64,000 nt of DNA from Heterodontus francisci. Lineage: Eukaryota. Positions 10,486 through 34,952 of the stretch are shown here, one piece after another; positions within the stretch are counted from its first letter, which is position 1, and each line of letters opens with the position of its first letter. The position numbers and the translations under genes were made by a program. The notes under the pieces are model-generated. The model was not told where the DNA came from. It ran no database searches and was given only the letters and a program-made list of their open reading frames with translations. The stretch lies in the NCBI RefSeq assembly GCF_036365525.1, contig NC_090404.1:7130001-7194000 (forward strand), written 5' to 3'.

Positions 10486-10872
10486 GATCTCTCTGTCTAT
10501 TATCTATTCGACGTTCTGCATCCACGGTTAACCAGGAATATTTTTTGCGGGTGTGAGTTATGGTGACTCTGTCAGACAGTGGCCAACAGAAGCCCAATAT
10601 TTGGAAGGAGTTTCGATGAGCATTAATTGTATCTATTCAAACTCCAATGTGAGCTATTCTGTGCAGCTTTATCGTCGGAGCCAGAACATGGCTTCCACTT
10701 TCGGAATTCAGGCATATTCCTATGGAATGTACGAAGTTAACGGTCATTCTGGAAACGTTCGCAATTCGAGCTTTTCTCATCGTGACTGGGCTGCAGCTCG
10801 TTGACAGCGCCCTGTGCTACTGTGTCTTGAACCTACACAGAAAAAGACCTCGGGATACTTCGTACAAATACC
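10142..10872 (+). pseudogene. T-cell receptor alpha/delta-type V pseudogene 2 with degenerate RSS
   Basis: Putative leader MEFGLFAFWAPLVLLF (10142-10190) and mutated acceptor ttttttgcgg. Exon 10551-10835 reads (G)VSYG-DSVRQWPTEAQYLEGVSMSINCIYSNSNVSYSVQLYRR.., frameshift, then FLIVTGLQLVDSALCYCVLNL. Heptamer CACAGAA 10836-10842, 21-bp spacer, nonamer ACAAATACC 10864-10872. Confidence 0.8.
10421..10485. repeat. (TATC)n microsatellite in the leader-V intron
   Basis: Direct read. Confidence 0.95.
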
Positions 10873-10899
10873 GTGTTCTGTAAGGTCTTTGGTAGGCGG

Positions 10900-13235
10900 T
10901 GAAGGAACCAATAGGAGGGGAAAATATACTTGCCCTTGTCCTAACCAATCTGTCTGCCGCACATGCATCTGTCCATGACAATATTTGTACGAGTGACCAC
11001 CGCACAGTCCTTGTGGAGACAAAGTCCCGTCTTCATCATGAGGATACCCTCCATCGTTGTGTGGCACGACCACCGTGTTAAATGAGATAGATTTCGAACA
11101 GACATAGCAATGCAAAACTGAGCATCCATGAGGCGCTGTGGGCCATCAGCAGCAGCAAAACTTTACAACTGCAATCTGTAACCTCATGGCCCAGCATAAT
11201 CCCCAGTCTATCATTGTGAATCATCAGCGAACATCCCCACTTCTGATCTTATGATTGAAGGAAAGCCAGGGAACCAACCCTGGCTCAATGAAGAGTGCAG
11301 AAGGGCAAGCCAGAAGCAGCACCAGGCATACCTCAAAATGAGGTGTCAACCTGCTGAAGCTGCAACACAGGACTACTTGCTTGCCAAACAGCGTAAGCAG
11401 CATGCGATAGACAGAGCTAAACGATCCCATAACCAACGGATATGATCTAAGCTCTGCAGTCCTGCCACATCCAGCCATGAATGGTGGTGGACAATTAAAC
11501 AACGAACCGAAAGAGGTGGCCACAAATATCCCCATCCTCAATGATGGGGGAGCACAGCACATCAGTGCAAAAGATAAGGCCAAATCAGTTGCAATAATCT
11601 TCAGCCAGAAGTGCCGAGTGGATGATCCATCTCAGCCTCCTCCTGAAGTCCCCAGCATCACAGATGCCAGACCGAAGGCACTGGATACTGCAAGGTGTAT
11701 GGGACCTGACAACGTCCCAGCAATTTTACTGACGACCTGTGCTCCAGAACTTGCTGCGCCCCTAGCCAAGCTGTTCCAGTACAACTACAACACTGGCATC
11801 TGCCCGGCAATGTGGAAAATTGCCCAGGCATGTCTGGTACTCTAAAAGCAGGCCAAATCCAACCCGGCCAATTACATCCGCCAAACCACCCCCCGCCCCC
11901 ACCCCACCTCCCCACAAGTCCACGTTCAATCATCAGTAAAGTGATGGAAGGTGCCGTCGAAAGTGCTATCGTGCAGCATTTACTTAGCAATAACCTGCTC
12001 AGTGACGCTACGTTTGGGTTCCGCCAGGGCCACTCAGGGGCCGACCTCTTTACAGCCTTGGTTCAAGCATAGAAAAAAGAGCTGAACGCAAGAGGTGAGG
12101 CGAGAGTGACTGCCCTTTACATCAAGGCAACATTTGACTGAGTATGACAGCAAGGAACCCTAGCAAAACTGAGGTCAATGGGAAACAGGGGAAAACTCTC
12201 CACTGGTTGGAGTCGTACCTAGCGCAAAGGAAGATGGTTGTCGTTGTTGGAGGTCAATCATCTCAGCTCCAGGACATCACTGCAGGCGTTCCTCAGGGTA
12301 ATGTCCTAGGCCCCACCATTTTCAGCTGCTTCATCAATGACCTTCCTTCAATCATAAGGTCGGAAGTGGGGATGTTTGCTGATGATTGCACAATGTCCAG
12401 CACCATTCATGACTCCTCAGATACTGAAGCAGTCCGTGTAGAAATGCAGCAAGACCTGGACAATATCCAGGCTCGGGCTGATAAGCAGCAAATAACATTC
12501 GTGCCACACAAGTACCAGGCAATGACCATCTCCAACAAGAGAGAATCTAGCCATCTCCCCTTGACATTCAATGGCGTTACCATCGCTGAATCCCCCACTG
12601 TCAACATCCTGAGGGTCACCATTGACCAGAAACTGAACTGGAGTAGCCATATAAGAGCTACAAGAGCAGGTCAGATGCGAGGAATCCTGCGGCAAGTAAC
12701 TCACCTCTTGACGCTCCAAAGCCTGTCCACTATCTACAAGGCACAAATCAGGAGTGTGATAGAATACTCTCCACTAGCCTGGATGGGTGCAGCTCCAACA
12801 ATACTCAAGAAGTTCGACACCATCCAAGACAAAGCAGCCCGCTTGATTGTCACCACATCCACAAACATTCACTCCCTCCACCACCGCACACAGTGGCAGC
12901 AGTGTGTACCACCTACAGGATGCACTGCAGCAGCGCACCAAGGCTCCTTCGACAGCACCTTCCAAACCCGCGGCCTCTACCATATAGAAAGACAAGAGCA
13001 GCAAATGGTTGGGAACAACACCACCTGCAAGTTCCCCTCCAAGCCACACACCATCCCGATTTGGAACTATATCACCATTCCTTCCCTGTCGCTGGGGGAA
13101 ATCCTGGAACTGCCTGCCTAACAGCACTGTGGGTGTCCCTACCCCACATGGAATGCAGCGATTCAAGAAGGCTACTCACCACCACCTTCTCAAGGGCAAT
13201 TAGCGACGCCCACATCCCATCAATGAAATAAAAAG
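10900..13235 (+). mobile_element. CR1/L2-group non-LTR retrotransposon, 5'-truncated, degraded RT
   Basis: MGPDNVPAILLTTCAPELAAPLAKLFQ, FGFRQGHS, GVPQGNVLGPTIFSCFINDL, MFADD; A-rich tail at ~13225. Confidence 0.88.
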
Positions 13236-13239
13236 CACA

Positions 13240-13725
13240 TTCATCTGCTTTATCCTCCTATTTGTATACTTACTTGCGCGTGATACGAAGAATAATCTGG
13301 AGATTACTACTTCTGAGCTCTGGCATGCTAATTTCCTATTTATCTCCCAAAATTCTGATGAAAAAGACCACATCCCCCTTTCTGCCGATGTCATTGGACC
13401 ACGACTGCTGGCTGTTTACGATCTCCCCATCAGGGTGCGCTGCAGACATTCGGTCACATGTTTGACCCTGGCACCAGGAAGGCAACACACCATCCTGGAT
13501 TCACATCTGCATCCACAGAACGCTGTTTATTCCCCTAACGATCGAATCTCCTACCCCTGTTGCTCTTGCAGTCTTCTTTTCGCCCTCTGCGCAGCTGAGC
13601 CAAGCGTGGTGCCATGGACGTGGATCTGGCTGCACTTCCCAGATGAACCAAAACTTTTATTAGTATTCAGAACTGAATACTGATTGGAGAGTGAGATGCA
13701 CTTGGGTTGCAGACACTTCTGCGCC
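13240..13725 (-). mobile_element. CR1 ORF1 (SGNH esterase-like) fragment
   Basis: Minus strand reads VGDSIVRG..MVCCLPGARVKHV; LSNQYSVL. Confidence 0.7.
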
Positions 13726-13739
13726 GTCTTTTGCTGGGC

Positions 13740-13965
13740 TCCCACGTCATTGAGGATGAGGGTGAATTTGGAACCTCTTTCTCCTGTTAGCTGTTTAATT
13801 GTCCAACATCGTTCATGACTGTATGTGGCAGGACTGTGGAGCTTTAATCTGATCCATTGGTCGTGGGACTACTTCGCTCTGTGTATCGCATGCTGCTTCC
13901 GCTGTTTAGCATGTATGTAGTTCTGTGTTGTCGCCTCCTCAGATTGACACCGCATTTTTAAGTCT
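13740..13965 (-). mobile_element. LINE fragment, reverse copy of ~11335-11550
   Basis: Reverse-complement similarity (tgtttaattgtcc..tgtggcaggactg..tatcgcatgctgctt). Confidence 0.75.
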
Positions 13966-15234
13966 ATGGAGACTAAAAACCCGGGCAGCTCCTGGCTGGA
14001 AGGAAGTTGGGTTTATACTCACTCTTGTAATGACTGGACCATTGAGGGCAGTGGGTCCCATACTTCACAGCGCCTGAGAAAGGCCCCAATCTGTGGCACG
14101 GGCCGCGTTACATTCTGAGACAACCCGCGACAAACGCGCACTTCCGCAAAAGGTTTAACCAAGGCTTTTTATATCCCCGCGTGGACAAACTTTCACTTTT
14201 ATGGATTAAGATCGAGTGGTATTTTAATGGAAAGTGAAGTCGGTTTTCTTTTCAATCAGTTGCTCTTTTATCTAAACGGCTAACATGGGCAGTATGTGAC
14301 ATCTCACAAACATGGCGGACGTCAGTTTGACTGGCAGTGGGTGACGTCACAATGCTTCCCCTCGTCACCGCACTGTGATTTGCTGTTTCCAACATTGATT
14401 CAGGGTCAGGGGTCACGAGCCATCTCCAGCCTCCTCTCAGCACCTGTGACCCCGAACTCAGAACTGTGACCCCGAAGGGTTTCGTCTCGACATCTTAAAG
14501 GGGGCGTCACCAGTGAGACTGGTGCCTGGAAAAAGGACAGAAAGACCGAGAGACACAGCGAGGGAGGCTAAAGCTAAATATAGCTTAGAGGGCAGGACGG
14601 CCCAGAATGATAGTGGTGGGGGAGGAGTGGGGGGAGAGATTGGAGCAGAGAAAGAGTTCAAGCATCAACGCCACCCAGTCCCAAATATAATTCTGAGCCG
14701 TTAAGAAGGGTCGTTAATTCTTCTCTGCCTGAATCTGATTTGATATTCAACCACAGGAGACCTCGCGCCTGAACATCAGGAGTGCAGAGAAAAATGCATT
14801 CAAAGGACAATGTCGGAAGATACTGGGGTCGGAACAGAAAGCTCTGGTGATGTTCCCGTGACCGGGAGGTACCGAAAGAATCTGATGAGACAGTGACGAA
14901 GGAGGAGAGAAATTTCAATTTGTGAAAGTATGAGGTTCACTGGCGGATCCCGGGGCTAATTTTTAGGGAGATGGTATAAGAGGGAATGGAGCAGGGAGAG
15001 AGGATCCCTGGTGTGATGTTCAGTGAGTTCAGGGAGATGGTATCAGATGGAATCGAGCAGAGAAGAGAGAAAGGTCATCAGAGAAACATGTGACAGAGGG
15101 GCAGGGGTAACAGGTATTGCAGAAAAGGTGAAGGCAGAAAGTTGGCGTGTGCATAACAGAAAAGTGGAGAGTGTATGTGAGACAGATTAGCTGGAGTGTG
15201 CGGGTTGTGTGAATAACAGAAAATGTGAAGACAG

Positions 15235-15630
15235 AGTCTCTGTATCTGATAGACCTCAGTCTCCTGGAATCATTCCTCCAATTTGTGCTCTCTTTTGTGT
15301 CAGATGTGCCCCAGGCTCTGGGAATCATTCCAGGGATTGTGCTCCCCTGTTTGTCAGATCGGCTTCAGGCTTTGGAAATTATTCCCAGGAATTTTCCTCC
15401 CCTGTTTGTCACATAGTTTTTGGGCATGGGAAATCATTACCCGGGGTCGTCCTCTCTGGTTCATTAGATAGGCCCAAGGTTCTGGCATCATTCTTAGAAT
15501 TTGTGCTCCTTGTCGTATCAGATAGACCCCGGCTCTTGAAATAATTCCCAGCATTTGTGTTCGATGGTATATTGTGTCAGATATGCACCAGTCTCCAGAA
15601 ATCATGCCAGGGTTTGTGCTCTCTCATGTG
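15235..15630. repeat. Degenerate ~54-bp tandem repeat (~7 units)
   Basis: Units such as cagatgtgccccaggctctgggaatcattccagggattgtgctcccctgtttgt. Confidence 0.75.
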
Positions 15631-15885
15631 TTATATATCTAACCTGTGCTGTATCTGTTCTGAGAATGTTTAAAGGAACAGTGCAGAGAGAGCTCCCCTG
15701 TGTAACTAACCTGTGCCGTGCCTGCCCTGGGAGTGTTTGATGGGACAGTGGGGACGGAGATTTACTCTGTTTCGAACCGGTGCTTTGCCTGTCCTGGGAG
15801 TGTTTTATGGGAGAGTGCAAAGCGAGCTTTATTCCCTATCAAACCTGTAACGTGCCTGTCCTGGAAAGGTTTGATGGGACAGTAT
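15630..15885. repeat. ~60-bp minisatellite (reverse orientation of 225-544 family)
   Basis: cctgccctgggagtgtttgatgggacagtg units. Confidence 0.8.
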
Positions 15886-16249
15886 TCCTCCATGTATCAG
15901 ACTGCGATGGAGCAGAGCGCTGCTCTTTAATATAACCTGGCACATGACTGTGGCAGACCATAAGATGGGAGAATTCAGTGAGGTGCTCCAGGTCACTGTC
16001 CGGTCATTCTGCCACTGGGAGTGGCAAGATACGGCAGAACGAAAGGTGTCTTTACTCTGAAGGGACTCTGGTTGGCACTGCAGCTCCTTCACCGAAGAGC
16101 CTTGGGATTAAACGCAACCCGGACAGGACTGGTGCCATATTGCTGTCAGGAAAGTGAGGAAACGTGTAATCGGGAAAAGGGAGCTGTGTAGAGGGTCATT
16201 AGGGCAAGGAATTCAGCCAAGTCCAAGTTAGTCCATGTGTTACTCAATA

Positions 16250-16255
16250 TTTATT
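16250..16255 (-). promoter_or_regulatory. Poly(A) signal of membrane-form mu mRNA
   Basis: AATAAA on minus strand ~420 nt after the TM2 stop. Confidence 0.6.
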
Positions 16256-16674
16256 AACAATTTTAAAAAAGAACATTTTACAGAGAGGATTTAAAGAAAG
16301 GTCCAAAATGAATATAACAACTTTACGTCACATTGAGTACAGAACACATATGATCTGAGCTGCCAGCTCTCTGTAAAACTGTAACAGAGCAGAGAGAGAA
16401 AACGGAGCTCAACATAAAAAGGGACCACTTGTGAATAAGGAATAGTTACTTATTTACACATGAAATTCAAACGAAGGTGAAACTCGAAGACGCATTTACA
16501 TTAGAGCCACGATTATCCCACATATTTTAAAGAGGAAAACGGGAATACTATTTATGATTCTCTCAGCTACAGATTCAGAACTATAAATTGAAGGCATTTT
16601 ACTGTTGGTGTTTTTCTGTTATGCAGAGATGTTTAAAAAACGAGGAAAATCCAGGGTGGCATAAATTCACTCGA

Positions 16675-16683
16675 TCACTTGAC
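16675..16683 (-). CDS. IGHM: IgM heavy chain TM2 exon (VK*)
   Basis: ttttacag|GTC AAG TGA; completes the cytoplasmic KVK tail. Confidence 0.93.
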   Translation of the reverse strand, partial: VK

Positions 16684-16822
16684 CTGTAAAAGAGGGATAA
16701 AGGAGTGAAGCAGAGATTTCGTGGTTCGGGACATTCATCTCAAGGTTAAATTTATGAAACTTTTAGAGATTTGCGAAACAACTTCAGTTAAATTGAAGTG
16801 TGAGTGGATTGAATATTCTCAC

Positions 16823-16950
16823 CTTCACCAGAGTGACGGCAGCACTGTAGAAAATGCTCAAGAAGAACAGGATGATGAATGTGGAAGCGGTTGTCCAGAT
16901 GTTGCCGCTCTCTTCCTCATTGTCTTCAATCCAGATGTGGTCTGAGGAAT
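16823..16950 (-). CDS. IGHM: IgM heavy chain TM1 exon
   Basis: ag|(D)SSDHIWIEDNEEESGNIWTTASTFIILFFLSIFYSAAVTLVK|gtgaga; CART-type motif; 128 nt, phase 1 to 0. Confidence 0.95.
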
Positions 16951-17559
16951 CTACGCGGATATAGAGGAGGAAATATATTCAAATAGTTTATTAATCCAGC
17001 ATATATTTTGCATTCGAATGTCTCTTCCTTCAGCTATTATTGGTTTTCTAATTTAATTTTCAATGTGTGGCTATTAAGTTAATCATGCTCAGTAATCTAT
17101 CTCTGTTACCAACTCCACAATTATTCTTCCTTTATCATCGTCCTCCAGGCCTTATTGGAAAATGTGTCAGTTTTTTCTTCAGTGTCAGGCGCTTTTTTAT
17201 TTTAGATGCAGTTGCGGTTTTTCTTAAGGGATTATTATGGTGAAATATGAGATATCGAGGGAGGTTTACTGATCGATAACAATTATTTTGAAGATGGGTT
17301 CGGATATCTACTTATTTGGAGATTGTCAATTGTGCTGAGTAAGAGCTCGGATGCGAGTTCCAATCTTATTTGTATGTGATGAATGTCGCTTGAAAATCAT
17401 TTACATTCCTCAGTTTCTAAGTGAGAATTTTGCTTCGTTATCTTTTTAGGTCCACCGTGCATTCGGGAAGTTGTTGGAGATGGTGTCCATTCAATCAGTG
17501 CATTTGAATTCTACTTTCGTCAACAGCCTGGCGATTTTGTCTGCGCATTTAGTGTTTGT

Positions 17560-18480
17560 GCAAATGTGTACGAGTATCTTCCTTTGCATCACTCTCTGTT
17601 TCCATGTGTACGTGTGTGTGTGTGAGTGTTAATGTGTGGGAACAATGTAGTTGTTTGGGTGCCCATGTGTGTGTCAATGCGCGTGTTTATATGTTAATGC
17701 CTGTGTGTATGTGTCCATGTATGTTAGTGTGTTAATGTGCCAATGTGCATTGATTTGTGTAATCAAGTAGCCGTCTGTGTGTGTTTGGTGTGTGTGTATG
17801 TGTGTGTTTGTGGTGTGTATATGTGTGTGTGTAAGTCTATGTGAGTTGTGTTTCTTTATCCGTCTTTGTTTATGAGCGGTTGATGTTTATTTATGTCGGT
17901 GTCTGTGTCCCTATGCGTGTGTTAATATCTGTGTTTCTGTGTTGATGGATGTGTTTATGTTTCCCTGTGTTTCAATGTGTGTTTATATGTCCATGTGTGT
18001 GTGCTAATGTGTTATTTATGCCTGCTTGTGTCCCCATGAGTGTGCGAATGTATGTTTTTGTTGATGTCTACGTTTATGTATTAATGCATATATTAATGTG
18101 TGTTTATGTGAGCATGTGTGCGAATGTATGTGCTGATGTGCGCGCTTGTGTATCCATGTTAATATTGGTGTCTATTTGTTTGTGAGTGTGTTAATGTGTT
18201 AGTGTGTCTGTTTATCTGTGTGCATATGTACGCGAGTCTGTTAATATGCGAGTGTATGTGTCCATGTATGTGTTAATGTGTGTGATGGTGTGTGCTTTGA
18301 TGTCTCGGTTTCTGCTTTCGTGAGACTGCACTAACGTGTGCATTTATGTTCGTGTTTGCGTATGTGACTGTGGGAATCTTGCTTTCAGCGTTTGGGTTTG
18401 TTTGTGTATGTAGATGCATATGTGTGTTTGTACATGTGCGTGTGTTTATGTGTTTGTTTATGTCCGTGTGCCTGTACATT
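17560..18480. repeat. Degenerate (TG)n low-complexity tract in the Cmu4-TM1 intron
   Basis: Direct read. Confidence 0.9.
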
Positions 18481-19519
18481 TTTATTATTAAACGAAGTTT
18501 CAGAGAGTACAAATAACCGCGTCTAGCCCTGACGGTGTGCACTGTAGAGAATATTCTTTATCGTTCTGTGCGTAAATCTATTCTGTGCGAGATGCAATAT
18601 GACATCAGCTGGATGAATGCAACAATGAAAATGATGGGCCTCGGCACAACAGGAATAGTGGATGATTAAATCACCAGTTAGATTTAGACTATTGGAATTT
18701 AATCTGTCAGGGAACGTGGCCAACAGGAAAATGTTTTAAGATATCATGTTGCATAAAGATATATTTTGCAATATATTTCCCACGTGGAATGTTTAAACCT
18801 TCGTACAGTGAACTGGAAGCCGACTTCGAACTGATGGCAATTGAATCCGATCATGAAGAGCAGTTGGCTTCCAATCTCTCTGCAGGGGGAGTGGGAGTAT
18901 AGTGGGTTAACAAATGCCCTTACTCCTTTCTCTGTCGAGGAATTGGTGAGGAGTGGGGGGCCTATTACAGTAGGTCCACAATTGCCTTCCTTCTCTATTG
19001 GTGAAGTGGAGTAACAGTGGATTAACAATTACCCTTTCCCCCTCTCTGTTTAGGATGTGGATCTACAGTAGATTAATAAATTGTACTTTCCCCTCTTTCT
19101 GATGGAGAATTGTGAGTGCAGATCGTACTTGTGTGTGGCCTTCGGTTCAGTTCCCACAGCATGTGATGCTGAAACTGCAAACTGACCTCAATACCGAAGG
19201 GGTGGACAACACGAGAAGCAGGAACACCGATTACTAAATGCACTTCGTTTGTTCGTTAGAAAAGGGAAATTTTCAGATATCCCCAGACAAGGCAGGAGGA
19301 AAGCTAAGTTGCTGGTGTTACCTTCCGGAATCCTGTAATGAATCAGTTTTCCTCTGTCGCTAACCTGTGATATCTGAGTTGGGAGCACTGATTGCACAAG
19401 ACTTGGGCCCGAGACCTGCAAATATCCCACTTTAGATGAATAGATCTACCCTGAGAAAATGTGGGAAGCAGAATTAATTGAGCGCTTGTGTATTTGAATC
19501 GTGATTGGAGGAAAATGTC

Positions 19520-19535
19520 TTTATTGATTTTTATT
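19520..19535 (-). promoter_or_regulatory. Tandem poly(A) signals for secretory mu mRNA
   Basis: AATAAA at 19530-19535 and 19520-19525, 30-45 nt after the secretory stop. Confidence 0.75.
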
Positions 19536-19563
19536 TAAGAATTAAAATGCAATCGAGAGATTC

Positions 19564-19955
19564 TCATTGACATGAATTGACAGTGTCCAACAGTGCAAGG
19601 GAAATGTTCACAAAACTCGGTTTACCGCTGGATTTATTAACTGTTCTGTTGATGATCTTCAAGGGGATCGCTTCATGTCCCACCACACAGGAGTAAGAAG
19701 CGCCGCTGGCCCACTCCTCCGCTGCAATGGATAACAGGCTGTAGATGAAGTAGGAGCTATTGTCGTTCTCTGCCATCACCTCGGTGTTCTTGTAGTTGCC
19801 AGGATTCACCGACTTGTCATTGACGGTCCACTTGACGAAGATCTCTCGGGGGGAGAAACCTCTCACTAAGCAGGTGAGGGAGAGGAACCTCTGAGCGGAG
19901 ACATCGTCTGCCGGGGGCAGGAGGACAGATACGGACGGTTCCCGCAGATCTTTAT
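19564..19955 (-). CDS. IGHM: IgM Cmu4 exon plus secretory tailpiece
   Basis: cag|(N)[74 protein letters not shown]. Internal donor G|GTAAA at 19626/19625 for TM splicing; NIS glycosylation site and penultimate Cys. Confidence 0.97.
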
Positions 19956-20457
19956 CTGCAGAAAAATTAAAATAGATGTCAATAAACTGGATAATTCCAC
20001 AGACAATTAAACCGTTGGTTAGATGTGAGAGGAATGTGATTTGTGCTGAATTTTAAAGGTTTTCCTTTTCCCCTCTGCGGTCTGTCCTGTTTTCCAGCCC
20101 GGAGCAGAGGCGGATGCAATCCCCTTCGCAGAGAACTTAAAGGATTAGACTGGAAAATTACATAGAAGTAAAAAGCACAGGAACAGGCAATTCAACCCAG
20201 CTAGCCTGTGCTGGTGTTTATGCCGCCCACGAACCTCCTCCCACCTCACTTCATCTCTTTCTATTCCTTTCTCCCTCATCTACTTATCTAGCTTCCCCTT
20301 AAATGCATCACCTCTGGTTCCAGAGCGTTTCGTTTGAGGAATTACAATTAAATTATCAGAATAATCCATGAGAAGACTTAACAGGACGAATTGTTCCTTG
20401 CACAAACACCGGAAATAAGCACAACCTCTCACTTATTGTTTCAATCTCACCGCTCAC

Positions 20458-20766
20458 TTTTTTCCTTGTGGATGAAATCTCTGAGAGGAGTCGGCAGATC
20501 CTGATGGCTCACCACACAGTAGAAATCAACCCCACTCAGCCAGGATTGTGCCGAGATGTCTACGGTGCTGATCACACTGTCGGAATCCTCTCCGGGTTGC
20601 ACGGCAATCTCAGATTTCAAAGGCTTCTGTTCTTGTGTCCAGGACACGTTGACACCATAAGGAGCATTAGACACGACGCAGGTTAAGGTCACCGTCGCCT
20701 CCAGTAAGACCTGTTCTATTGATGGTGGCAGTAGTTTAATTACTGGATCATTGCAGGAACAAGGAA
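20458..20766 (-). CDS. IGHM: IgM Cmu3 exon
   Basis: cag|(V)[45 protein letters not shown]|gtgagc; 309 nt, phase 1-1. Confidence 0.96.
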
Positions 20767-21332
20767 CTGTAAAACAGATATGAAAGTCAAACAAAGATTC
20801 ATCTTCAGAATCAGACACCAATATTCAGCCTTCACTGTCTCTAGGAGAATAAATCAACTTCGAGACATCGAACTCAGACTTTTGCTTTATTAATATCGTT
20901 TATTGGAAGGACAACAACCTGAAAAAGCTTCCGGGAGATTCTATAACATATACTGTGTACTTGCACCCTAAAAAGCCTATAATGGGCTTTGAAGCAAGTA
21001 CCCAGAGTAAAAATCGAATAATTGCGGGAGAAATTGTGTTGTGCACTGAATAATGTTCTTCCCGAAATCCCTTCGGAGCAAGCTCGAAGGGCCGTATGGC
21101 CTACTCCTGTTCCTAATTCGGATGTTCGTTTGTTAGTATTCCACCCATCTATCAGTCCTTGCACCGGATCACATCTCCTCTAAATATAATGGCTCTGACA
21201 CCCACGAGCTCTTTATCTAATTCACACTGGCTCATAACGAGAGTCAAATGAAATCCCGAATTTTAGGCCCAACAGGAAACAAACTTAATTTTCTTGCGCC
21301 TTGTCACGGTATTTGGGGAGAGGAAAATGTTT

Positions 21333-24495: not shown

Positions 24496-24710
24496 TCAAA
24501 GCAGAGGGAACCATTTTGTGGTGATGTAATAACATGTTGAACCGTGAGCAAACCTAATTCAGCACTCACAGCGGAACAAAGCAAAATAAAACCTACATGA
24601 TGGTAAATTAGAAATTATTCTGTGATTTGTACTAATTCCAATAATTTCCTGCCTTTGATATTCATCATAGAACAGAATGATCTGGAGCTTTCTCCATTGG
24701 TGTCTCTTAC

Positions 24711-25028
24711 CCTGAGATCCGGTGATGTTTCGGCTTTGGGTGACCGCTTGATGGGAGACCTGGCAGGTATAGACCGTGTTGGTGAACCATTCCCCTGCGG
24801 GGACTGTCAGCCGACTGGTCGCTGAGAAGTTTCCGTTCACTTCACAGGCGGGAGAGGTGACGAAGCCCGAATCCATGGATTGTCCATCCTTCAACCAACT
24901 CACGGTTATTGACTCTGGATGGAAATCGATGATTGAACACAAGACAGTTGCAAATCTGCTGCTTGTGATTTCTTCACTGGAAGTCTGGGTGAGGAGAACA
25001 GTTGGATGGACGATGTCGCCTTGACAAT
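24711..25028 (-). CDS. IGHM: IgM Cmu2 exon
   Basis: aag|(D)[64 protein letters not shown]|gtaaga; 318 nt. Confidence 0.96.
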
Positions 25029-25231
25029 CTTCAAGAAAAACATGTTAGACATTTCTAGAAGAAATTAATAACTAATGCAAACTGTTCTTTCATTTTAACA
25101 GATGTCAAGCAGACACTAACTGGAATCTTCAGGAATTAGAACAGTGCACAGTGCTCTAAATGTAATATAGCCGAAGCTCTACAAAAGATCATTCTAGCTT
25201 TTCAGTTTTTCACAGTTTCCACAACACTAAC

Positions 25232-25528
25232 CTGGAATTTCCTTGATCCAGACTGACTCTCCGCGTCGAACCTCGCAGTAGATTTTGCTGCTTCCCACCT
25301 CTGACTCGGTGATGGTTAACTGGCTGCTCAGGGTGTAGGTTCCCTTCTTGTTCAGCACTGACGGGTAAGTCTTCAGTCCAGTGGTGATCGTCTCTTGATC
25401 TTTCTTCCAGGAAACGCTGGTGATTTGGGGGATGTAGTCCATCGCCAAACAGCCGTAGGCAACGGAGCCACCGGTGTTGGGTTGTTCACAGGAGCACAGA
25501 CCATAAAGTGTCGGGGGAGACGGTGTCG
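25232..25528 (-). CDS. IGHM: IgM Cmu1 exon
   Basis: cag|(A)[45 protein letters not shown]|gttagt; 297 nt. Confidence 0.96.
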
Positions 25529-26263
25529 CTGGGAAACAATGGCAGATTGAACAAGTTAGACTCTGTGATTCTTGCTTATTAAGTAACCAGACACATCGGA
25601 ATTTAACTCCAGCTAGAAACTGATTCCAATATTTTCCGATTGAAACCTTCATCCACATTTCAGCTTCATTTAGATCCATCGTTTGGTGATAATCGCCTGT
25701 CGGTCCCCTGGTTAGGAAAACACCTCTCTTTCAGGACCTGTCACATTACAAAATTAAGAGCCTTTTGAAGTCATCTCAATAAAGTACCCTCCATTGGACT
25801 GATCTGGAAGAGGAGATTCCCCACTATTTCAGCTAGTACTTATTTCTAAACCAACAGCACCTTGCCAAAAAAAAAGCACTCGGCATTTATTAATTGCAGT
25901 TTTTGGAAATTTACTCTCTGCAAATTGACTGCTGGTTTTCCCCACCCCTCCACATACCACCACCACCCACCCCCCACCCCTCCACCCCACGCCCACCCCC
26001 ACCTCTCCCCACCCCCAAATAGCGGCAACTCTTAAAAAGAGGCATCGCAATGTGTGCTTATAAAACGAGTTTATAACCCGAAACTTGACTCCCAGGCAAA
26101 GTCCTTTCATTATTTCCCCATAAAAAAACCTACAACAAATCCTGGCATGTACATGACCCAGGATTATAAAATAATAGAAATGATAGCAGAGAAATAGGCC
26201 ATTCGGTCCATCAAGCCTGTGAAAGATCACTCCAGCGATCCCGCTGACCTTCCAATTACTAAT

Positions 26264-26430
26264 TTAAAGCAACATACTGCGGATGCTGGAAATCGGAAAT
26301 AAAAACAAGAAATGCTGGAAATGCTCAGCAAGTCTGGCAGTATCTGTGGAGAGAGAAACCGAGTTAACGTTTCAGGTCAGTGACCCTTCAACAGTGACCT
26401 GCTGAGTATTTCCAACATTTCTTGTTTTTA
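26264..26430 (-). mobile_element. Solo Penelope pseudo-LTR with short inverted segment and hammerhead-like motif
   Basis: Same pLTR sequence as 7040-7170; flanked by ttccaattactaat (26250-26263) and ttccaattcctaat (26431-26444). Confidence 0.78.
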
Positions 26431-27429
26431 TTCCAATTCCTAATCTTCTTTTCTAAAGTTCCATTTTATCCAGCTATGTTAGATTCTGTTGACAGCTCTC
26501 TTTCTGATAGGACATCCCAGATCCTAACAACCCCCTGTGTAGAAAAGTAGATTCATACCCTCTTCCTTCATTCTTTTGACGCTGATTTTAAATCAGTGCC
26601 CTCTGCAGTCCAACTCACTGATCTGGGCAAATTGGTTTCGAAATTTCTGGATAAAACATTCATTATTCAAAACACCTCTACATGACTTCATTTTAATCTT
26701 CTATGTTCCCACAACAATAAAGAACTTTAACAATAAATAGTTGAAGTCTCCTTTGAAACATGGACTGAATCATTTAGTACACAGATTTCAGAGGGGAATG
26801 TTTACACAACCTAGTTTCTGGAATTAAAATTTTAGATGACTCGGCATTGACTCCAGACTATCAGTTTCCTTCTCAGTACTTGAAGATTGTGATTTGTGTT
26901 CTAGCTTTACTGAATGGATCTCTCCCGAGTTTGCTGCTCCCTCCAGCTCAATTAATAATCCGAAATAAATCCGATTCCTAAATATCAGTTATCTGGAATG
27001 ATGTTCTTGAAATGGTCCATTTAATTTTCCAAAGTATGTTCCCACCCCTCACCAGTGAGAACTGGTGTTGCAGAGTGTGCCGTTACAGACACATCTTCTT
27101 GTAGCTTACACCGACCATAATGTGAACATCAGGAGAGGTTTCTTCTATAAATATCTGATATTCACATTACTTACACATTACACATCGAGTGAATATCAGT
27201 AATTTCCAGGCAAGGGAGGACAAAAGTTCCTGAAGTGTTATTGCTGACATGGCCAACTCTCACTTCTGTTTTGTGTGGACAATTCAAACACTTGAGGCTT
27301 ATTGGTCAGATATTGAAAGCTCGCTCACCAAAAGGATGGAAAAGAGATTGTCGATGTTGGTGGCACAAAGGTTGGACAGATGGGCTCTCAAATGACATTA
27401 GATAACATACCACATAAGAGAACATTCAG

Positions 27430-27738
27430 AAAATTTAGAAATACAGCACTGAAACAGGCCCTTCGAGTCTGTGCCGACCAACAACCACTCATTTATACTA
27501 ACCCTACAGTAATCCCATATTCCCTACCACCTACCTACACTAGGGGCAATTTACAATGGCCAATTTACTTATCAACCTACAAGTCTTTTGGCTTGTGGGA
27601 GGAAACCAGAGCACCCGGAGAAAACCCACACAGACACAGGGAGAACTTGCAAACTCCACACAAGCAGAACCCAGAATCGAACCCGGGTCCCTGGAGCTGT
27701 GAGGCTGCGGTGCTAACCACTGCGCCACTGTGCCACCC
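27430..27738 (-). mobile_element. tRNA-derived V-SINE (HE1-like), near full length
   Basis: Minus begins GGGTGGCACAGTGGCGCAGTGGTTAGCACC..GGTTCGATTC; same family as 21333-21669. Confidence 0.88.
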
Positions 27739-27789
27739 ATTTGGGGAGTAGAATTTCGAAGTTCGAGAATTATACGAAACAAATTGTGA

Positions 27790-28650
27790 GCAGGATAGTA
27801 ACAGAGTTCAGGAGGACATAGACAGACTGGTGAAATATTCAGAGACAGAGCAGATGCAATTTAATGCGGTTAAATGTGAAGTGCTGGACTTTGAGGAACA
27901 ACAGGGAAAGCTAATGCAATGTAAGTGGTACTATTTTGAAGGGGGTAGAACGGTAGAGGGGCCTGAGGTGCATATTCACAATGTTTTGAAGATGGTTAAG
28001 AAAGCAAATAGAACATTTGGTCTTGTAAAATGGATTATTGAATACAAACAAGGAAGTCATATTAAAGCTTTGCAAGTCACTGATTAGGCTGGAGTATTTT
28101 TTGCACAATTCTGGCCATCACACTTTCGGAAGAAGGTCACGGCTTTGGGGAGAGTGCAGAGGGAGTTTACCAGGATGATGTCAGGAATGAAGGAGTTCAG
28201 TTATGTAGAGAGATTATACAAGTTGAAATGTTCTCCTTCGCTGGATACCGAATAGGCATGTTCAAAATTATGGGATGTCTTGATGTAGCAGATAAGGAGA
28301 AACTGTTTCCTCTGGCAAGTGGGTCAGTGGCAAAATAATTAATTGGCAACAAAATGGAGTGTGGGCGGGGTGGTGGCTGCAGAAGGAGGTCTCTTTACTG
28401 ACAGAAGGTGATTTTCACAGAAGCATAGAACGGTTACAGCACAAAGGGAGACCATTCAACCCGTCGTGTCGATGCATGCTCTCTGTAAGTGCATCTGGAA
28501 TGCACAAGGCACCAGGACATGTCCTGGAAGGAGACTACATTTCATGGTTATGAGGGGGGAAATGGCTTGTAGGATTAAATTGGAGAGCTCTTTAAGAGCT
28601 AACACAGGCATGGCGGGCTGAATGGCCACATTACGTACGAGAAGATTCTG
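27790..28650 (+). mobile_element. Old CR1-like LINE 3' fragment(s)
   Basis: QMQFNAVKCEVL, VKKANRTFG; CR1-like tail. Confidence 0.7.
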
Positions 28651-29349
28651 TGATCCTACCCGACTCAGTAGAGTTAGTTCTTCCAAATTCAATGGGAGGA
28701 AAGGCTTCATAAATTTGAACATCTCTGACATTTGTTTCTATTGCTTATTATAATGAAAGAGGATTTTTAAAATAAGAGGATCTGAAAGATTTAATAGAAG
28801 TGAGTCAATCAGATACCGTCGGAGACTTAAAGTTTGTGATTGACATTGATTGCAGGCTAACTGTATCACTTCAAAAGTTACACAGAAGCTTACTTCAGTG
28901 GCTTTGTGCCCTCTGCTGTGACCCAGTCCAATAACTGCATCTCAGAGTTTATCACTGCCTGTTATCTTTTGAAAATACTTGAACGAAATACTGGTTTTAA
29001 ACATGAGATTATCATGATGGTTATTTGGAGCAGGAGTCTCGACTTTTCTCCATTTAAATCGCCAAAAGGTCTTCCAGCCTCATCAGATCAGAACAGGTGC
29101 TGTTCTCTGGAATGTTACAGTCACTTCCTGCAACTTTTTGTTCTGAAAGCGCTCTCAAAATCAGACCAATTTCATTCAATAATTATCTGATGCTTAACAT
29201 TTTAAAATATTATTAATTCATTAAAATTTGGCCATGAAAGAATATTAATACCAATTAATATGCGTTGTTTAATCTGGGCAATGGAACGATTTATTTTCAT
29301 ATATCTGGGTCAAGAACTCACAAGTTCTAAGTTAGATGCAGATTAAGGA

Positions 29350-29760
29350 TCCTTGGAACACTGGGGAAAACACTCTCAGGTCAGGTACAGGAAAGATAAG
29401 CGATCGAGTAAAGACCCCTTTGTACGGCCCTGTCATGAGCTGCAAGGTCAGACATCGCAAGTGTTATATTCGGAGGAAAGCCGCCTCTACACTACACTGT
29501 CGCTCTGGGTCAGGTACAGCACTAGTTTAATATTTTAAAAAATAGTTCCCTCTACGCTGTCCCATCAAATACATCCAGGACAGGTTGAACCAGGTTTAGG
29601 TACAGAGTAATTTCTCCCTCTACCCTTGCCTCATCAAACGGATCCAGGATAGTTACAGTATGCATTAAGTATGCAGTAAAGCTTCCCCTACATTGCCGAA
29701 TCAAACACTCCCAAGGGAGGTACATTGCTGATTACAAACTGACCAAATATCCTTCTACAG
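29350..29760. repeat. ~60-bp minisatellite, degenerate
   Basis: catcaaacactccc..caggtacag..gagtaaag units. Confidence 0.7.
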
Positions 29761-30196
29761 TCTGTCTGCCGTGTCTCTGAAGTGTTATCTCTGATTGTCA
29801 CAGACTGGAATACTGATCTCATTGCTGAGGCGCCTCATCAAACTTAAAGTCAAAACTTTAGGTTTCTCACAGATACAAGCTTCTTAAATAAATGGATCAA
29901 GTTGCAGGAGAACGAATCAGACTGTTTACCACCTGTAGGGAGGGCTCCTCGTCCCGACACAGTAAGCAGGCGCACAGAAACTGAACAGGCACAAACGATG
30001 CAACAATCGGGCTCTCAGCAGATAGATCTGTTCAATCCGTCAATTTCAATGAAGCTGTTTGATTCTAATTTATCAATTGTCAAATTGTGACCACTCCAAG
30101 TCTGGAAGCTCTTTGAAATTAAACTGATAGTCATTTCCAAAACTCCCTTCGACCTCCAAATGTTTCTCCCTGTCTGTTTGCAATCTTAAAAACGTG

Positions 30197-31105
30197 TATG
30201 AAAATTCTGAAGGAGAGAATCTATCTCCACTTGGCGAGGCAAAATTTGATTAGGTTATGGTCAGCATGGCGATGTCAAATGGAATTTAACGCTGAAAAGT
30301 GTGAGGTGATACACTTTGGAAGGAGTAATGTGACACGGAAGTATTCAATGAATGACCTGACACTGGGAAGTTCTGAGGAATAAAGGGATCTTGGCGTGTT
30401 TGTCCATAGAACTCTGAAGGAAGAAGGGCAGGTTAATAGGGTGGTGAAAAAGGCATATGGGACACTTGCCTTTATCAATCGAGGCATAGATTACAAAAGC
30501 AGGGAGGTCATGTTGGAGTTGTACAGAACTTTGGTAAGGCCACACTGGAGTACTGTGTGCAATTCTGGTCGCCACATTATAGGAAGGATGTGATTGCACT
30601 GGAGGGGGTGCAGAGGCGATTCACCAGGATGTTGCCTGGGATAGAACATTTAAGCTATGGAGAGAGGTTGGATCGGCTTGGGTTATTTTCGCTGGAGCAG
30701 AGAAGACTGAGGGGTGACCTGATCGAGGTGTACAAGATTATGAGGGGCATGGACAGGGTGTAAAGGGAGCATCTGTTACCCTTAGTTGAAGGGTCCATTA
30801 CGAGGGGACAGTAGTTAAAGGTGAGGGGTGGGAGGTTTAAGGGGGATCTGAGGAAGAACTTACTTTTTTACCCAGAGGATGGTGACGTTCTGGAATGCCA
30901 CTGCCTGGGTGGGTTGTCGAGGCCGGTTGCCTCACATCCTTTAGAAAGTACCTGGATGAGCATTTGGCACGTCACAACATTCAAGGCGATGGGCCACGTG
31001 CTGGCAAATGGGATTAGGTAGACAAATCAGGTGCCATTAATGCATCGGTGCAGACTCAATGGGCCGAATGGCCTCTTCTGTACTGTATTATTCTGTGATT
31101 CTGTG
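30197..31105 (+). mobile_element. CR1-like LINE 3' fragment in the J-Cmu1 intron
   Basis: [45 protein letters not shown]; tail gggccgaatggcctcttctgtactgtattattctgtgattctg. Confidence 0.9.
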
Positions 31106-34076
31106 AGAAAGTTTCCCTTAAAATGAGTACATCAAAACAATCCACATTCAGGAAACTTTGATGTCGGTGACAGGAACTCAGTGACAGATAAAGAATTTAG
31201 CAAATCAGGAGACATTTAATTGCAAACAGATTACCCACTGGTTTGATACAATTTCAGAACTAAATGTTACCAAAAAATCATTGAAGCAATACACAAAGTT
31301 AATTAAAATCAGCGGTGAAACCTTATCGAGCTGAGAATCGCTGAGTAAGAAATGTATTGTTCTCTAAATTATTTTTGGACATCATTCAAAATTCTCTCCG
31401 GCCCTTGCTATTTTGCAATCATTGGAATCCTGGGAGGTCATTTATGTTTACTGAATTAGCGCTATTATATTCTAGGCTAATATTTAGGTTACCTGATTTT
31501 ACACTGTAATTTTGAGCATTAGTTAATATTAATTCAAGACCAATTTCTGTGAAATTATCGGATTTTAATTAAATCAATATGACATTTAATCAATATTAAA
31601 TAATAGACGTCATATTGATTGATGAAAACATTCAGACAAATATATTACTTAATCGAATCACAGTTCAATAATTTAAAATGAAAAATAATTTCTACTTCGG
31701 CCCTGCTTTCAATCTATAAACTTGGAAACTGCGCATGTATCTGAATGTGTTGATATATCATAGACTCTGTCTAATCTCAGCGAGTATTTCACACGATGGA
31801 TTTAAGAGTGGAATATTTTAAATAGTTTCAAGCCAGGCCAGGGTCACATCTCACTAACTGTTCATGGGCTGTAACATCCGCTGTTCATGAAAGCAGGACT
31901 CTGGTGTTTAAATATTGTCATAAATCTTAATCATATAAGAAAAAAATCAAAAACATCCGGACAGTTTGCGATCAGGAACTGTGCTGCCTCTATTTAATCA
32001 GACAATGTTTTTATATTTTATTCTCGTAATGCACACAATCCCCGTAAATTAATTGGTAAATATATTCTGGTTTTTTTTATTGAAAGAAGCTCCAAAATGA
32101 TCACTGTAAAATTGGACGAGAATAATTCTTTCAGATCATCTGCGACATTTCAAACTTAATGAACAAATGTAGCCCAGATTTTGCTGATCAATTTAATATT
32201 TCATAAGAATTAAGCATAACTCTCAGGTATAATCTGTTCTTTGTCTATAATTCTATCCTGTGTGCAGCATAACTGTGGGAGACAGGATGTTGTTACTGAA
32301 TTAAAAACTAACATTAACCTTTTGTAATTAATTGAATCTGCTTGAATTTCAAGGGGTTATTTGTTTGCCTCCAGCCTTACGCAGTTTGCAAGTTTCTTCA
32401 ATTTAAACAAAATCATATCTGCAATTCTTTGACTGCCAACAACTTCCTGTCTCAGGAAAATTGTTAATATTAGATTAGTGATAATTATCTCACTATCCAA
32501 CAACAAATGATATTTAAGGAAGAACATGGTTTGGGCTGCACGCAAAGAATGTAATAACCGGACAGAGATATTACACTGACAAACTGCAATTTACAACTCC
32601 TATTGAAGTTATAAGTAAAGACAAGCTGTAATTCACTTGTTTTAATCAGAAATATAACAATTAATTCAAAATCGTTCATCAAATTGAACACAGCACTAGA
32701 ATAAGTACACTCTTATTGAAATAATTTCAAGCATAAATTAAAATTGTCTGCAGCCCATAACATTTCTGGTCACGATAATTGTGCGCATGGCACACCAGAA
32801 CTGTGAAAGTCGATTAATGAATAATGAATCGATGTTAATATTAAAGCATATTTGGTTTATATGATGAGATATTGCCGCATTAAAACTGTTTGAATTACAT
32901 TAACTTTACTCTCCAATCTGCAAACCTTCTAATTATGCAGTTTGTAATTGCAGTAACATTTAACGGACTTTCACGTCACAAACCGTGGCTTAATAGTTTA
33001 ACCTGTAATTATCAGTTAAATTTTTAAAATGCCATGAAATATCTTAAAATATTATTTCTCATTTCTTTCAAACAGTTTTAAACACGTAGAACGTTTCAAT
33101 TCGATCAGAAAACCTGCAGCCGCTCGCTCGAGATTAAACAATGTAGAAACACCAAACTGTTTCACAAATTTTACTTATTCAAAGTAACACACTCTCTTCA
33201 GCAGATAAACACCAAATCACATCACTGAGGAACTGAATCCCACCACAGTACATTTCATGGAGAAGCAGCTTAATTCTACAAATACTTCCAGCAGAATGAA
33301 ATGTAATATTGCAAAAAAAAATCTCAATGCAGAATCCACCGAGCCCGCCTGTACCTGACCTAACTAATTATTAAAATGATCAGATATATGAAACAATGGT
33401 CGCAGAATTGTTAGTAGACAGAACATGTTTAATAAATTAATATGAGTCCATGGCATAATCCATTGATGTTGGCTGATATCACTGCAGTATAATAACGAAG
33501 ATTATATGAATTTAAATCTGACCAAAGCTGCAAGTTTGTTATTTATGTAGCTTTTAATTACATCAAAATTTATTGTATTACATGTGAGCATTCCTGAGCA
33601 GTAGATTGATAGATGGCAATTTAATTACCACAAATATGAATCAAAATATTGTAAGACTATTTTTAACCGTTGAAGCTTTCTGCCTATACTTTTATTTCAA
33701 ACATATTTAAACACTTATTGTTTGCGCTAGACTAGAAAACCTGCAGTGACTAAATGTCAGCAAGATAAATCCTTGCAGAAATGTCGAACAGTTGAACAAC
33801 AGTTCGGTATTTAAAGTAGCACAGACACACCATCTCATCAACAAATTAACACCAAATCACATCAAACAGTAACTGAATCCTTCAACAGCACAGCCTGTGG
33901 AGAAGCCGTTAAATTCTCTAATCCCTTTGCAGCAAAATCACATGAAACATTGCACCAAATCTCAATACAGAATCCACCGACTCCACATTTCAGTGAACTA
34001 AGGTATCGTTAAAATAAACAGAAATATAAATAAAAACACGAATAAAACAGTTACTGAATAAATGCATGTTTCTTAC

Positions 34077-34124
34077 CTGCAGTCACCGTCACCATGGTCC
34101 CTTGTCCCCAGTAGCCCATGGCGT
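34077..34124 (-). CDS. IGHJ: IgH J segment (AMGYWGQGTMVTVTA)
   Basis: WGQG motif; donor G|gtaaga at 34076. Confidence 0.96.
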
Positions 34125-34163
34125 CACAGTGTTACATTCCCTGGGCTGGGTCACACAATAACC
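34125..34163 (-). other. JH 23-RSS
   Basis: Plus strand CACAGTG 34125-34131, 23-bp spacer, ACAATAACC 34155-34163. Confidence 0.95.
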
Positions 34164-34489
34164 GGCTCTGCACAGAATAGAGAGAAATCCATCATTATTT
34201 TAAATATCCATACCCCAGAGGCAAAATAAAATCTTGATGGTTCTTTGTAAAATTATATCTGCATTACTGATTTTTTTCACTCTTTATAAATTTCCCTGAT
34301 GTTTTATATTTCACACAGTAACATATCAGCAATTATTGAAATCACCAACTGATGAATGAGTAATTAATCAGTTTATCCATAATAAACCGTGCAAGGAGGA
34401 CAGTGCTGGACACAAACAGTACTTCACTGTATATACAGTTGGATTGTAAAAGCGAGCACTGACCCAGACTCGTCAATTAGTGCTGAGGG

Positions 34490-34558
34490 AGTTTTTGTTT
34501 TGACAGTAACTGCTGTGCCACCCAGAATATCACAGTGAACCACACCGTGTCAAATACT
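34490..34558 (-). other. IGHD: IgH D2 segment ATATTCTGGGTGG (34518-34530) with 12/12 RSS
   Basis: 5' RSS: CACAGTG 34531-34537, 12 bp, TCAAATACT. 3' RSS: CACAGCA, 12 bp, ACAAAAACT (to 34490). Confidence 0.93.
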
Positions 34559-34871
34559 GCAGTGGACTGTTAACTGTAAAATACAGAGATTAAATTCCAC
34601 AGCGTCCTCAAAAACCTGATTCCGACTCCCCTAAGAGTATATCGGTGAGATAATTCAGTTTATACCCGTCATTATATTTATAAAGGGGATTTGAATACTT
34701 CTGAAGCATCTGTACTGATTTAGCGTGACAGTCAGCACTAATTACGCAGGAGACTTTTATACATTTTTACAAATCTATATTATATTTCCCCAGTATTTTT
34801 ATTTAATCCTCATTGTTTACGGACCATCTCCCGTGTTAGTGATCACTGGTTGGTGCAAACTCCATGTATGG

Positions 34872-34952
34872 GGTTTTTGTGTGAGGAATTCGCTCTGTAC
34901 AGCACCGTGACCCACTGTAGTACCCACAGTGACACGAACCTGCACAAATACT
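34872..34952 (-). other. IGHD: IgH D1 segment GGTACTACAGTGGGT (34910-34924) with 12/22 RSS
   Basis: 5' RSS: CACAGTG 34925-34931, 12 bp, ACAAATACT. 3' RSS: CACGGTG, 22 bp, ACAAAAACC (to 34872). Confidence 0.95.

What the first reader, a model, noticed from the sequence alone, without database searches (positions are those of the whole stretch)
10836..34952. RSS geometry predicts single-step inversional TCR-V to IgM and VH to TCR-delta joins
Seen: the TCR V RSS (10836-10872) and the D1 5' 12-RSS (34925-34952) both have coding DNA left and signal right on +. Established: same-orientation 12/23 pairs join by inversion. Inference: an intact + strand TCR V further left could join D1 and flip D-D-J-Cmu into its own orientation, making a TCR-V/IgM heavy chain. 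Conversely the minus VH could invert onto a + strand D-delta further right. The RSS visible here (CACAGAA, 21 bp) is probably dead, so an intact neighbour V is required.
Basis: inference. Interest (0 to 1): 0.7.

Follow-up and report, generated by a model that had tools for sequence, protein, structure and literature searches.

The report
Fossil TCR-by-antibody RAG join in shark
This shark antibody (IgM) gene sits beside a dead T-cell-receptor V piece in a mixed region already known to give antibody-V/TCR-delta hybrids, and about 400 kb away the inherited DNA carries an exact fusion of a T-cell-receptor V signal to an antibody D signal, likely the scar of a germ-line recombinase cut that left an antibody V without its D, J and constant parts; no T-cell-V/IgM hybrid gene was found.

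Summary
The coordinates are right: a frameshifted TCR alpha/delta-type V with a dead signal (10836-10872) and the 5' 12-RSS of D1 in an intact minus-strand IgM cluster face the same way. The geometry is true but generic, since TCR-type V segments lie on both strands on both sides. Both D-delta-J-C cassettes lie 3.7-3.8 Mb to the left: the canonical one is on the VH's strand (deletion), and a second, inverted cassette allows inversion. VH-TCR-delta hybrids and this linkage are published. Not found in my searches: 400-430 kb left of the window the assembly holds exact signal joints between an IgH D1 12-RSS and a TCR V 23-RSS. Their unrearranged paralog is an intact + strand TCR V 309 kb left of D1, so the predicted pair was likely cut and joined once in the germ line. 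The TCR-V/D-J-Cmu product is not in the assembly; what survives is an open VH with no D-J-C. A second germ-line joint shows D1 inverting onto JH. Earlier scan notes reported the dead TCR V relics but not the signal joints. An expressed TCR-V/IgM chain remains unsupported.

The parts
8295..8563 (+). TCR alpha/delta-type V pseudogene A (frameshifted; no YYC end, no RSS)
10562..10833 (+). TCR alpha/delta-type V pseudogene B; 11-nt deletion near 10744 shifts the frame; 75% identical to intact L007
The nearest intact + strand TCR V found lies outside the window, at G000:C34:6,855,834-6,856,343
16823..16950 (-). IgM transmembrane exon 1, open
19567..19953 (-). Cmu4 plus secretory tail, open
20471..20770 (-). 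Cmu3, open
24721..25020 (-). Cmu2, open
25233..25544 (-). Cmu1, open
34077..34163 (-). JH (34077-34124) with its 23-RSS (34125-34163)
34490..34558 (-). D2 (34518-34530) between two 12-RSS
34872..34952 (-). D1 (34910-34924) with 3' 22-RSS (34872-34909) and 5' 12-RSS (34925-34952). A paralog of this 5' 12-RSS is fused to a TCR V 23-RSS outside the window, at C34:6,700,551, 6,713,829, 6,716,873 and 6,730,147
35334..35851 (-). VH: leader 35806-35851, exon 35373-35677 (open), 23-RSS 35334-35372, heptamer 447 bp from the D1 heptamer. Its possible D-delta partners lie outside the window: D-delta1 (-) at C34:3,343,702-717 (deletion) and D-delta2 (+) at 3,443,366-370 (inversion)

Best explanation
The window holds an intact IgM minicluster and two dead TCR V passengers in a 106-kb unit repeated five times inside the shark Ig/TCR-alpha-delta complex; its VH likely joins its own D1 in B cells and could occasionally reach D-delta 3.7-3.8 Mb to the left in thymocytes, while TCR-V-by-D1 joins are likely rare accidents, one of which was likely made by RAG in the germ line and survives as a signal joint beside a VH that has lost its D-J-C. 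Shown: cluster anatomy, dead local V, repeat structure, positions and strands of D/J/C-delta and alpha, exact heptamer-to-heptamer joints and the origin of both halves. Inferred: RAG as the cutter (precise RSS fusion is its signature); germ-line rather than somatic origin (both halves differ from every unrearranged relative examined); loss of the TCR-V/D-J-Cmu product, most simply on an excised circle (about 65%) rather than by inversion plus later deletion (about 35%); rarity and silence of somatic TCR-V/IgM joins (from nurse shark and Heterodontus data).
For: Five relic copies at about 106-kb steps plus one inverted copy; adjacent units 98-99.5% identical. TCR-type V on both strands on both sides: 150 of 643 candidates scored, all on C34. 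All 48 C34 matches to the 12-RSS J pattern lie at 3.19-3.46 Mb (94 matches, 13 in control). C-delta: 2 matches among 41 candidates, at 3.30 (-) and 3.46 (+) Mb. 12/22-23 D pattern: 43 matches, 0 in control; on C34 2 D-delta, both left, and 19 IgH D1. Signal joints: 5 matches, 0 in control; a looser pattern gave 20 matches, 2 in control, with the same 5 on C34. In 4 of the 5 the left half aligns to the V-D1 spacer up to the D1 heptamer. The right half differs at 3 of 110 bases from the RSS and flank of the TCR V at 6.856 Mb, at 11 from the next family member, and at 64 or more from VH, JH and D1-3' signals; homology starts at the heptamer's first base. The fifth joint (4,252,003) is D1-by-JH with the inverted coding joint kept. 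Rearrangement is intra-cluster in Heterodontus (PMC2191167, abstract passage) and in nurse shark, where 96 of 97 partial joins were within the minilocus and thymocyte IgH is partly rearranged but not transcribed (PMC2435157, passages and Discussion).
Against: The four TCR/IgH joints are over 99.8% identical, palindromic, and straddle a 13-N gap, so they record one event and some copies may be assembly duplicates. No second individual's DNA was checked. Deletion versus inversion is not resolved: the joint's VH is about equally close to two sister VH. The coding-joint searches used tight patterns that missed joins seen by other means (against 49, 52). Behaviour in B and T cells is borrowed from other studies. 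The TCR-V label of the 6.856-Mb gene rests on sequence motifs, its 23-RSS, the absence of a linked D-J-C and its place outside the well-supported VH clade, not on a named database hit.
Confidence: 0.75

Rival explanations
1. One reading: somatic inversions regularly join intact TCR V to D1-D2-JH-Cmu and give expressed TCR-V/IgM heavy chains.
For: An intact opposite-strand TCR V lies 309 kb left and others lie 0.55-0.72 Mb left and about 0.62 Mb right. The fossil joint shows the two signals are compatible. D1's 5' RSS has been used by inversion in the germ line. Nurse shark thymocytes hold V-DD-J and V-DDJ intermediates with a free 12-RSS (PMC2435157, passages). Inter-cluster inversions are real in zebrafish IgL (PMC3014032, abstract).
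Against: The cluster's own VH is 447 bp away. Thymocyte IgH is not transcribed and long-range IgH joins are rare (PMC2435157). All 7 germ-line joined V found by pattern are VH (2, 5). No copy of the lost TCR V coding end was found: 5 of 5 candidates, best non-self 85%. T cells lack light chain and an unpaired CH1 is held in the ER (recalled). The papers read describe only VH-to-TCR hybrids.
Confidence: 0.08
2. The signal joint is a one-off germ-line accident with no consequence, and the VH beside it is a young pseudogene.
For: Its leader has Leu in place of Ser at the -1 position. VH x D1 re-cutting across 450 bp would outcompete distant partners (inference). Neighbouring clusters are mostly joined or broken.
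Against: Open frame, intact splice sites and a 23-RSS closer to consensus than the window's own VH (1 against 3 mismatches), while its two closest sister VH are pseudogenes. This rival is compatible with the best explanation and differs only on function.
Confidence: 0.55
3. The joints are an assembly error or a somatic lymphocyte product.
For: Palindromic, near-identical copies around a gap.
Against: A mis-join would not fall exactly between two heptamers. The flank differs by 5-10% from the only close unrearranged paralog and has a 1.5-kb insertion relative to it, and the VH differs by about 12% from its sisters, so neither unrearranged parent is in the assembly. The VH side continues as a 90%-identical inverted paralog of the window's unit for about 80 kb.
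Confidence: 0.05

Closest known systems
Elasmobranch antigen-receptor complex (Flajnik et al. 2025, PMC12227049; parts 1-3 of 8, section 15 and passages read)
   Same: IgH miniclusters linked to TCR alpha/delta, with TCR-type V exons between clusters; VH-to-D-delta trans-rearrangement called common and explained by proximity.
   Different: The parts read give no orientations, no second inverted delta cassette and no TCR-by-IgH signal joint; its Table S1 was not read.
IgM/IgW V to TCR-delta trans-rearrangements and TAILV of nurse shark (Criscitiello 2010, Deiss 2019, Ott 2021; not held, known here only through passages in PMC12227049, PMC5931798, PMC6795676, PMC5192425)
   Same: VH with a 23-RSS joins D-delta. 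VH-like segments without D-J-C sit next to D-delta here too (3.36-3.43 Mb).
   Different: The orphan VH at 6.70-6.73 Mb groups with IgM VH, not with that TAILV-like clade, and carries the scar of how it lost its D-J-C. The reverse hybrid (TCR V on Cmu) is not described in the passages read.
Germ-line RAG joining in sharks (Lee et al. 2000, PMC2193156, passages; commentary PMC2193153, passages)
   Same: Heritable V-D, D-D, V-D-D and V-D-D-J joins within clusters, also seen here; a germ-line hybrid-joint inversion between D1 and D2 is described.
   Different: Those cases are coding or hybrid joints within one Ig cluster. The commentary's figure legend marks inter-cluster signal joints as postulated, not among the events supported by shark data. 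Here an exact signal joint links two receptor classes.
Zebrafish IgL inter-cluster inversional rearrangement (PMC3014032, abstract)
   Different: Somatic, within one isotype class, and shown in cDNA.

Membership tests
Cartilaginous-fish IgM minicluster | V-D1-D2-J within about 2 kb with 23/12-22/12-12/23 signals | tested here: met
Cartilaginous-fish IgM minicluster | four C-mu exons, secretory tail and TM exon, open | tested here: met
Functional TCR alpha/delta V (window 10562-10872) | open V exon | tested here: not met
   11-nt deletion in 6 of 6 close copies
Functional TCR alpha/delta V (window 10562-10872) | CAC heptamer with 22-23 bp spacer | tested here: not met
   TAC in the 23 register, 21 bp in the CAC register
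Functional TCR alpha/delta V (C34:6.856 Mb) | split leader, open V-set exon with both Cys and Trp, 23-RSS | tested here: met
Functional TCR alpha/delta V (C34:6.856 Mb) | seen joined to J-alpha or D/J-delta in transcripts | not tested
RAG signal joint | exact heptamer-to-heptamer fusion of one 12-RSS and one 23-RSS | tested here: met
   precise fusion as the signature: PMC2193153, PMC13433984 passages
RAG signal joint | each half traceable to an unrearranged segment, with homology ending at the heptamer | tested here: met
Inversional V(D)J join (TCR V x D1) | coding joint kept on the chromosome | tested here: not met
   no close copy of the TCR V coding end; no TCR-type V among 7 joined V. Met for the D1 x JH event at 4.25 Mb
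Germ-line (heritable) join | present in non-lymphoid DNA of several individuals | not testable with these tools
   no relatives held; my one run search asked for RNA with C-delta and listed no run on record as DNA
TAILV (TCR-delta-associated Ig-like V) | VH-like segment without its own D-J-C | tested here: met
   no D, JH or Cmu after any of the 4 copies
TAILV (TCR-delta-associated Ig-like V) | member of the distinct TAILV-like clade next to D-delta | tested here: not met
   falls outside the 99/99 clade of six such V; the label TAILV for that clade is my assignment
TAILV (TCR-delta-associated Ig-like V) | expressed with C-delta | tested here: inconclusive
   contigs cannot bridge V(D)J junctions

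The most novel reading that the evidence does not exclude
Germ-line RAG joins TCR V signals to IgH D signals in the interleaved shark locus, cutting the D-J-C away from an antibody V and so creating free VH segments that can be expressed only through TCR-delta. The orphan VH at 6.70-6.73 Mb is such a segment caught at birth, a mechanism for the origin of TAILV and of VH-delta genes, and the inverted second delta cassette lets VH of either strand reach a C-delta.
Probability: 0.25. Interest if true: 0.78.

Novelty: new variant of a known kind. Interest (0 to 1): 0.5.

Why it matters
How antibody V segments moved into TCR-delta loci (sharks, frogs, birds and others) is usually explained by proximity alone. 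A fixed signal joint between a TCR V signal and an IgH D signal is physical evidence that the recombinase has acted across the two receptor classes in the germ line, and it gives a one-step way to make a VH without D-J-C. It can be tested with one PCR and one repertoire search. The map also tells repertoire studies what to expect: VH-delta joins by deletion to cassette 1 and by inversion to a second C-delta only 57% identical in protein, which primers for C-delta1 could miss. The window's own feature, a dead TCR V beside an IgM cluster, is ordinary.

Tried and rejected
RNA: no holder on record as RNA was listed. Four runs of one sample show spliced C-delta1, but contigs break at V(D)J junctions. 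Laid on the orphan VH they covered only stretches shared by many VH, and neither the signal joint nor the 3' end of the V; this is no evidence either way. C-delta2 expression was not tested. Naming the 6.856-Mb V by database failed: PDB gave generic antibody hits, the protein search gave none, and the Atlas did not hold it. A 'longer' search with L007 gave two unnamed proteins. NAR-TCR D/J as + strand targets to the right: one NAR-like V at 7.807 Mb had no D or J between it and its partner V, and the D pattern found none; cassettes with other spacers were not surveyed. The + cluster at 6.652 Mb was considered as the inversion partner and rejected, because it is headed by a truncated VH joined to D1. 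The + cluster at 6.762 Mb was rejected likewise: it is the paralog of the window's cluster. RSS-like hits at window 17932-17979 and 24567 are within background. Nine paper searches surfaced no germ-line TCR-by-IgH signal joint, but the three key nurse shark papers were not held and no supplements were read.
Full report
Setting. The window is G000:C34:7,130,001-7,194,000 of a 6.0-Gb genome. The gene content is that of a shark; earlier scan notes call it horn shark, which I did not check. It holds one minus-strand IgM minicluster: leader 35806-35851, VH 35373-35677 with 23-RSS, D1 (12/22), D2 (12/12), JH (23), Cmu1-4 with secretory tail and a TM exon, all open. Two TCR alpha/delta-type V relics lie on + at 8295-8563 and 10562-10833.

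Observation. Both signals are at the stated places and face the same way. The motif at 10836 is not significant alone (10 loose hits in the window, 0-10 in 20 simulated windows), but it aligns to the 23-RSS of an intact relative at 9.245 Mb. In that alignment the true heptamer is TACACAG at 10834 with a 23-bp spacer. The V has an 11-nt frameshifting deletion in all 6 close copies. Five copies are at about 106-kb steps and one is inverted; neighbouring units are 98-99.5% identical. The rest of the unit carries a + strand IgM pseudocluster whose V, D1 and D2 are already joined. The TCR V relics therefore behave as passengers of a segmental duplication.

Map of the partners. All 40 scored VH matches (of 59 candidates) and all 150 scored TCR-V-like matches (of 643) are on C34, nearly all between 3.6 and 13.9 Mb, on both strands. 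The TCR alpha/delta core is far to the left: C-alpha 3.184 Mb, J-alpha 3.19-3.27, C-delta1 3.302-3.304, 21 J-like motifs 3.309-3.343 and D-delta1 3.3437, all minus. VH-like segments without D-J-C follow at 3.36-3.43 Mb, then an inverted, roughly 80%-identical second cassette on +: D-delta2 3.4434, 11 J-like motifs, and C-delta2 at 3.460-3.462 with open C and TM exons, 57% identical in protein to C-delta1. Genome-wide searches found 2 C-delta (of 41 candidates), 2 D-delta on C34 among 43 D-pattern matches, and no 12-RSS J on C34 beyond 3.457 Mb (48 C34 rows of 94). So the window's VH reaches D-delta1 by deletion over 3.82 Mb, or D-delta2 by inversion over 3.72 Mb. Nothing of the kind was found to the right, within the limits of these patterns.

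Intact TCR V. The nearest intact + strand TCR V found on the left is at 6,855,834-6,856,343, 309 kb from D1, with leader, open frame and a 23-RSS one base from consensus. I read 6.603-6.959 and 7.090-7.296 Mb in full; 6.959-7.090 Mb was only partly fetched and is taken to be further copies of the unit. More open V with good signals lie on both strands at 6.45-6.61 and 7.78-7.80 Mb. By the 12/23 and orientation rules (established knowledge), an opposite-strand V on either side joins D1 by inversion, a same-strand V upstream joins by deletion, and only a same-strand V downstream sends the coding joint to a circle. Orientation therefore hardly restricts anything; access and distance do.

What limits it. 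In Heterodontus cDNA, rearrangement is intra-cluster (PMC2191167, abstract passage). In nurse shark 96 of 97 partial joins were within the minilocus; thymocytes rearrange IgH extensively but incompletely and do not transcribe it (PMC2435157, passages and Discussion read). A TCR-V/D1 DNA join is thus plausible in thymocytes, where both loci are open, but expression is unlikely; T cells also lack light chain (recalled). The opposite hybrid, VH on TCR-delta, is described as common, and TCR V between IgH clusters is published (PMC12227049, parts 1-3, section 15; PMC5931798, PMC6795676, PMC5192425, passages).

The new evidence. Because shark RAG is known to act in germ cells (PMC2193156, PMC2193153, passages), I searched the assembly for head-to-head 12/23 signals: 5 matches, none in the reversed control. 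A looser pattern returned the same five on C34 among 20 matches, 2 in control; the other 15 lack proper heptamers. The other four (6,700,551; 6,713,829; 6,716,873; 6,730,147) read open VH, 23-RSS, V-D1 spacer, D1 12-RSS, then directly a foreign 23-RSS. That RSS and its flank match those of the 6.856-Mb TCR V: 1 difference in 39 bases, 3 in 110, 95% over 474 bp starting at the heptamer's first base, and 90-93% over further kilobases. VH, JH and D1-3' signals differ at 64 or more of 110. The VH side continues as a 90%-identical inverted paralog of the window's own unit, in which this VH corresponds to the + strand cluster at 7.210 Mb. The four copies are over 99.8% identical and flank a 13-N gap, so they are one event, perhaps present in only two real copies.

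The missing product. No close copy of the TCR V coding end was found (5 of 5 candidates, best non-self 85%), no D-J-Cmu follows the orphan VH, and all 7 germ-line-joined V found by pattern are VH (these patterns missed some joins seen). One excision with outward-facing signals explains the joint and both losses. I put these at about 65 to 35. The orphan VH keeps its frame, splice sites and a strong RSS but has Leu at the leader's -1 position; it groups with IgM VH, not with the VH-like clade beside D-delta. Whether it is expressed is open.

Verdict. The window itself is ordinary and half of the prediction is known biology with the partner on the other side. The other half gains a fossil: the predicted signal pair was likely joined once in the germ line, leaving a free VH rather than a hybrid heavy chain. 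I did not find this in nine searches of the held library or in four answered look-ups of earlier scan notes, but Criscitiello 2010, Deiss 2019 and Ott 2021 were not held and supplements were not read, so they may bear on novelty.

Noticed in passing
G000:C34:3,443,343-3,462,000 (L025-L027): Second, inverted TCR-delta D-J-C cassette facing away from the first; C-delta2 57% identical in protein, with open C and TM exons; a 5-base D. Expression not tested.
   Followed up: partly
G000:C34:4,251,189-4,252,004 (L064): Germ-line inversion joining D1 to JH with both joints kept. The result still obeys 12/23 for V to inverted D2 to inverted-D1-J, so the cluster may remain rearrangeable with reversed D frames.
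   Followed up: partly
window 33000-37000: The V-D-J region is 93-96% identical to the next unit's while the rest of the unit is mostly 98-99.5% identical, suggesting gene conversion from another cluster or selection.
   Followed up: partly
L040 (C34:7,378,900-7,379,400): In the fifth unit D1 and D2 are fused in the germ line, leaving one 12/12 D.
   Followed up: no
window 35366-35372 and sister copies: All five sister VH carry the non-consensus heptamer CACAATG; other VH here have CACAGTG.
   Followed up: no
L007:1502-1786; C34:6,447,064 and 7,785,459: A TCR V family with Leu in place of the conserved Trp of strand C (LQLYRQ), open and with good signals; the window's relic belongs to it.
   Followed up: no
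L045 (C34:7,802,803-7,802,929): Three tandem near-perfect 23-RSS at 63-bp steps behind one TCR V, and a NAR-like V with a 22-RSS 4 kb upstream without D or J.
   Followed up: no
contigs C407, C761, C779, C1317, C1675, C2233: Many copies of a D plus two J on both strands, likely a multiply duplicated TCR-beta cassette (label recalled, not tested).
   Followed up: no
contig C1869: Unplaced copy of the J-alpha array with identical matches, likely a haplotig.
   Followed up: no
C34:3,593,518 and 6,395,380: Two fully germ-line-joined VDJ heavy-chain genes.
   Followed up: no
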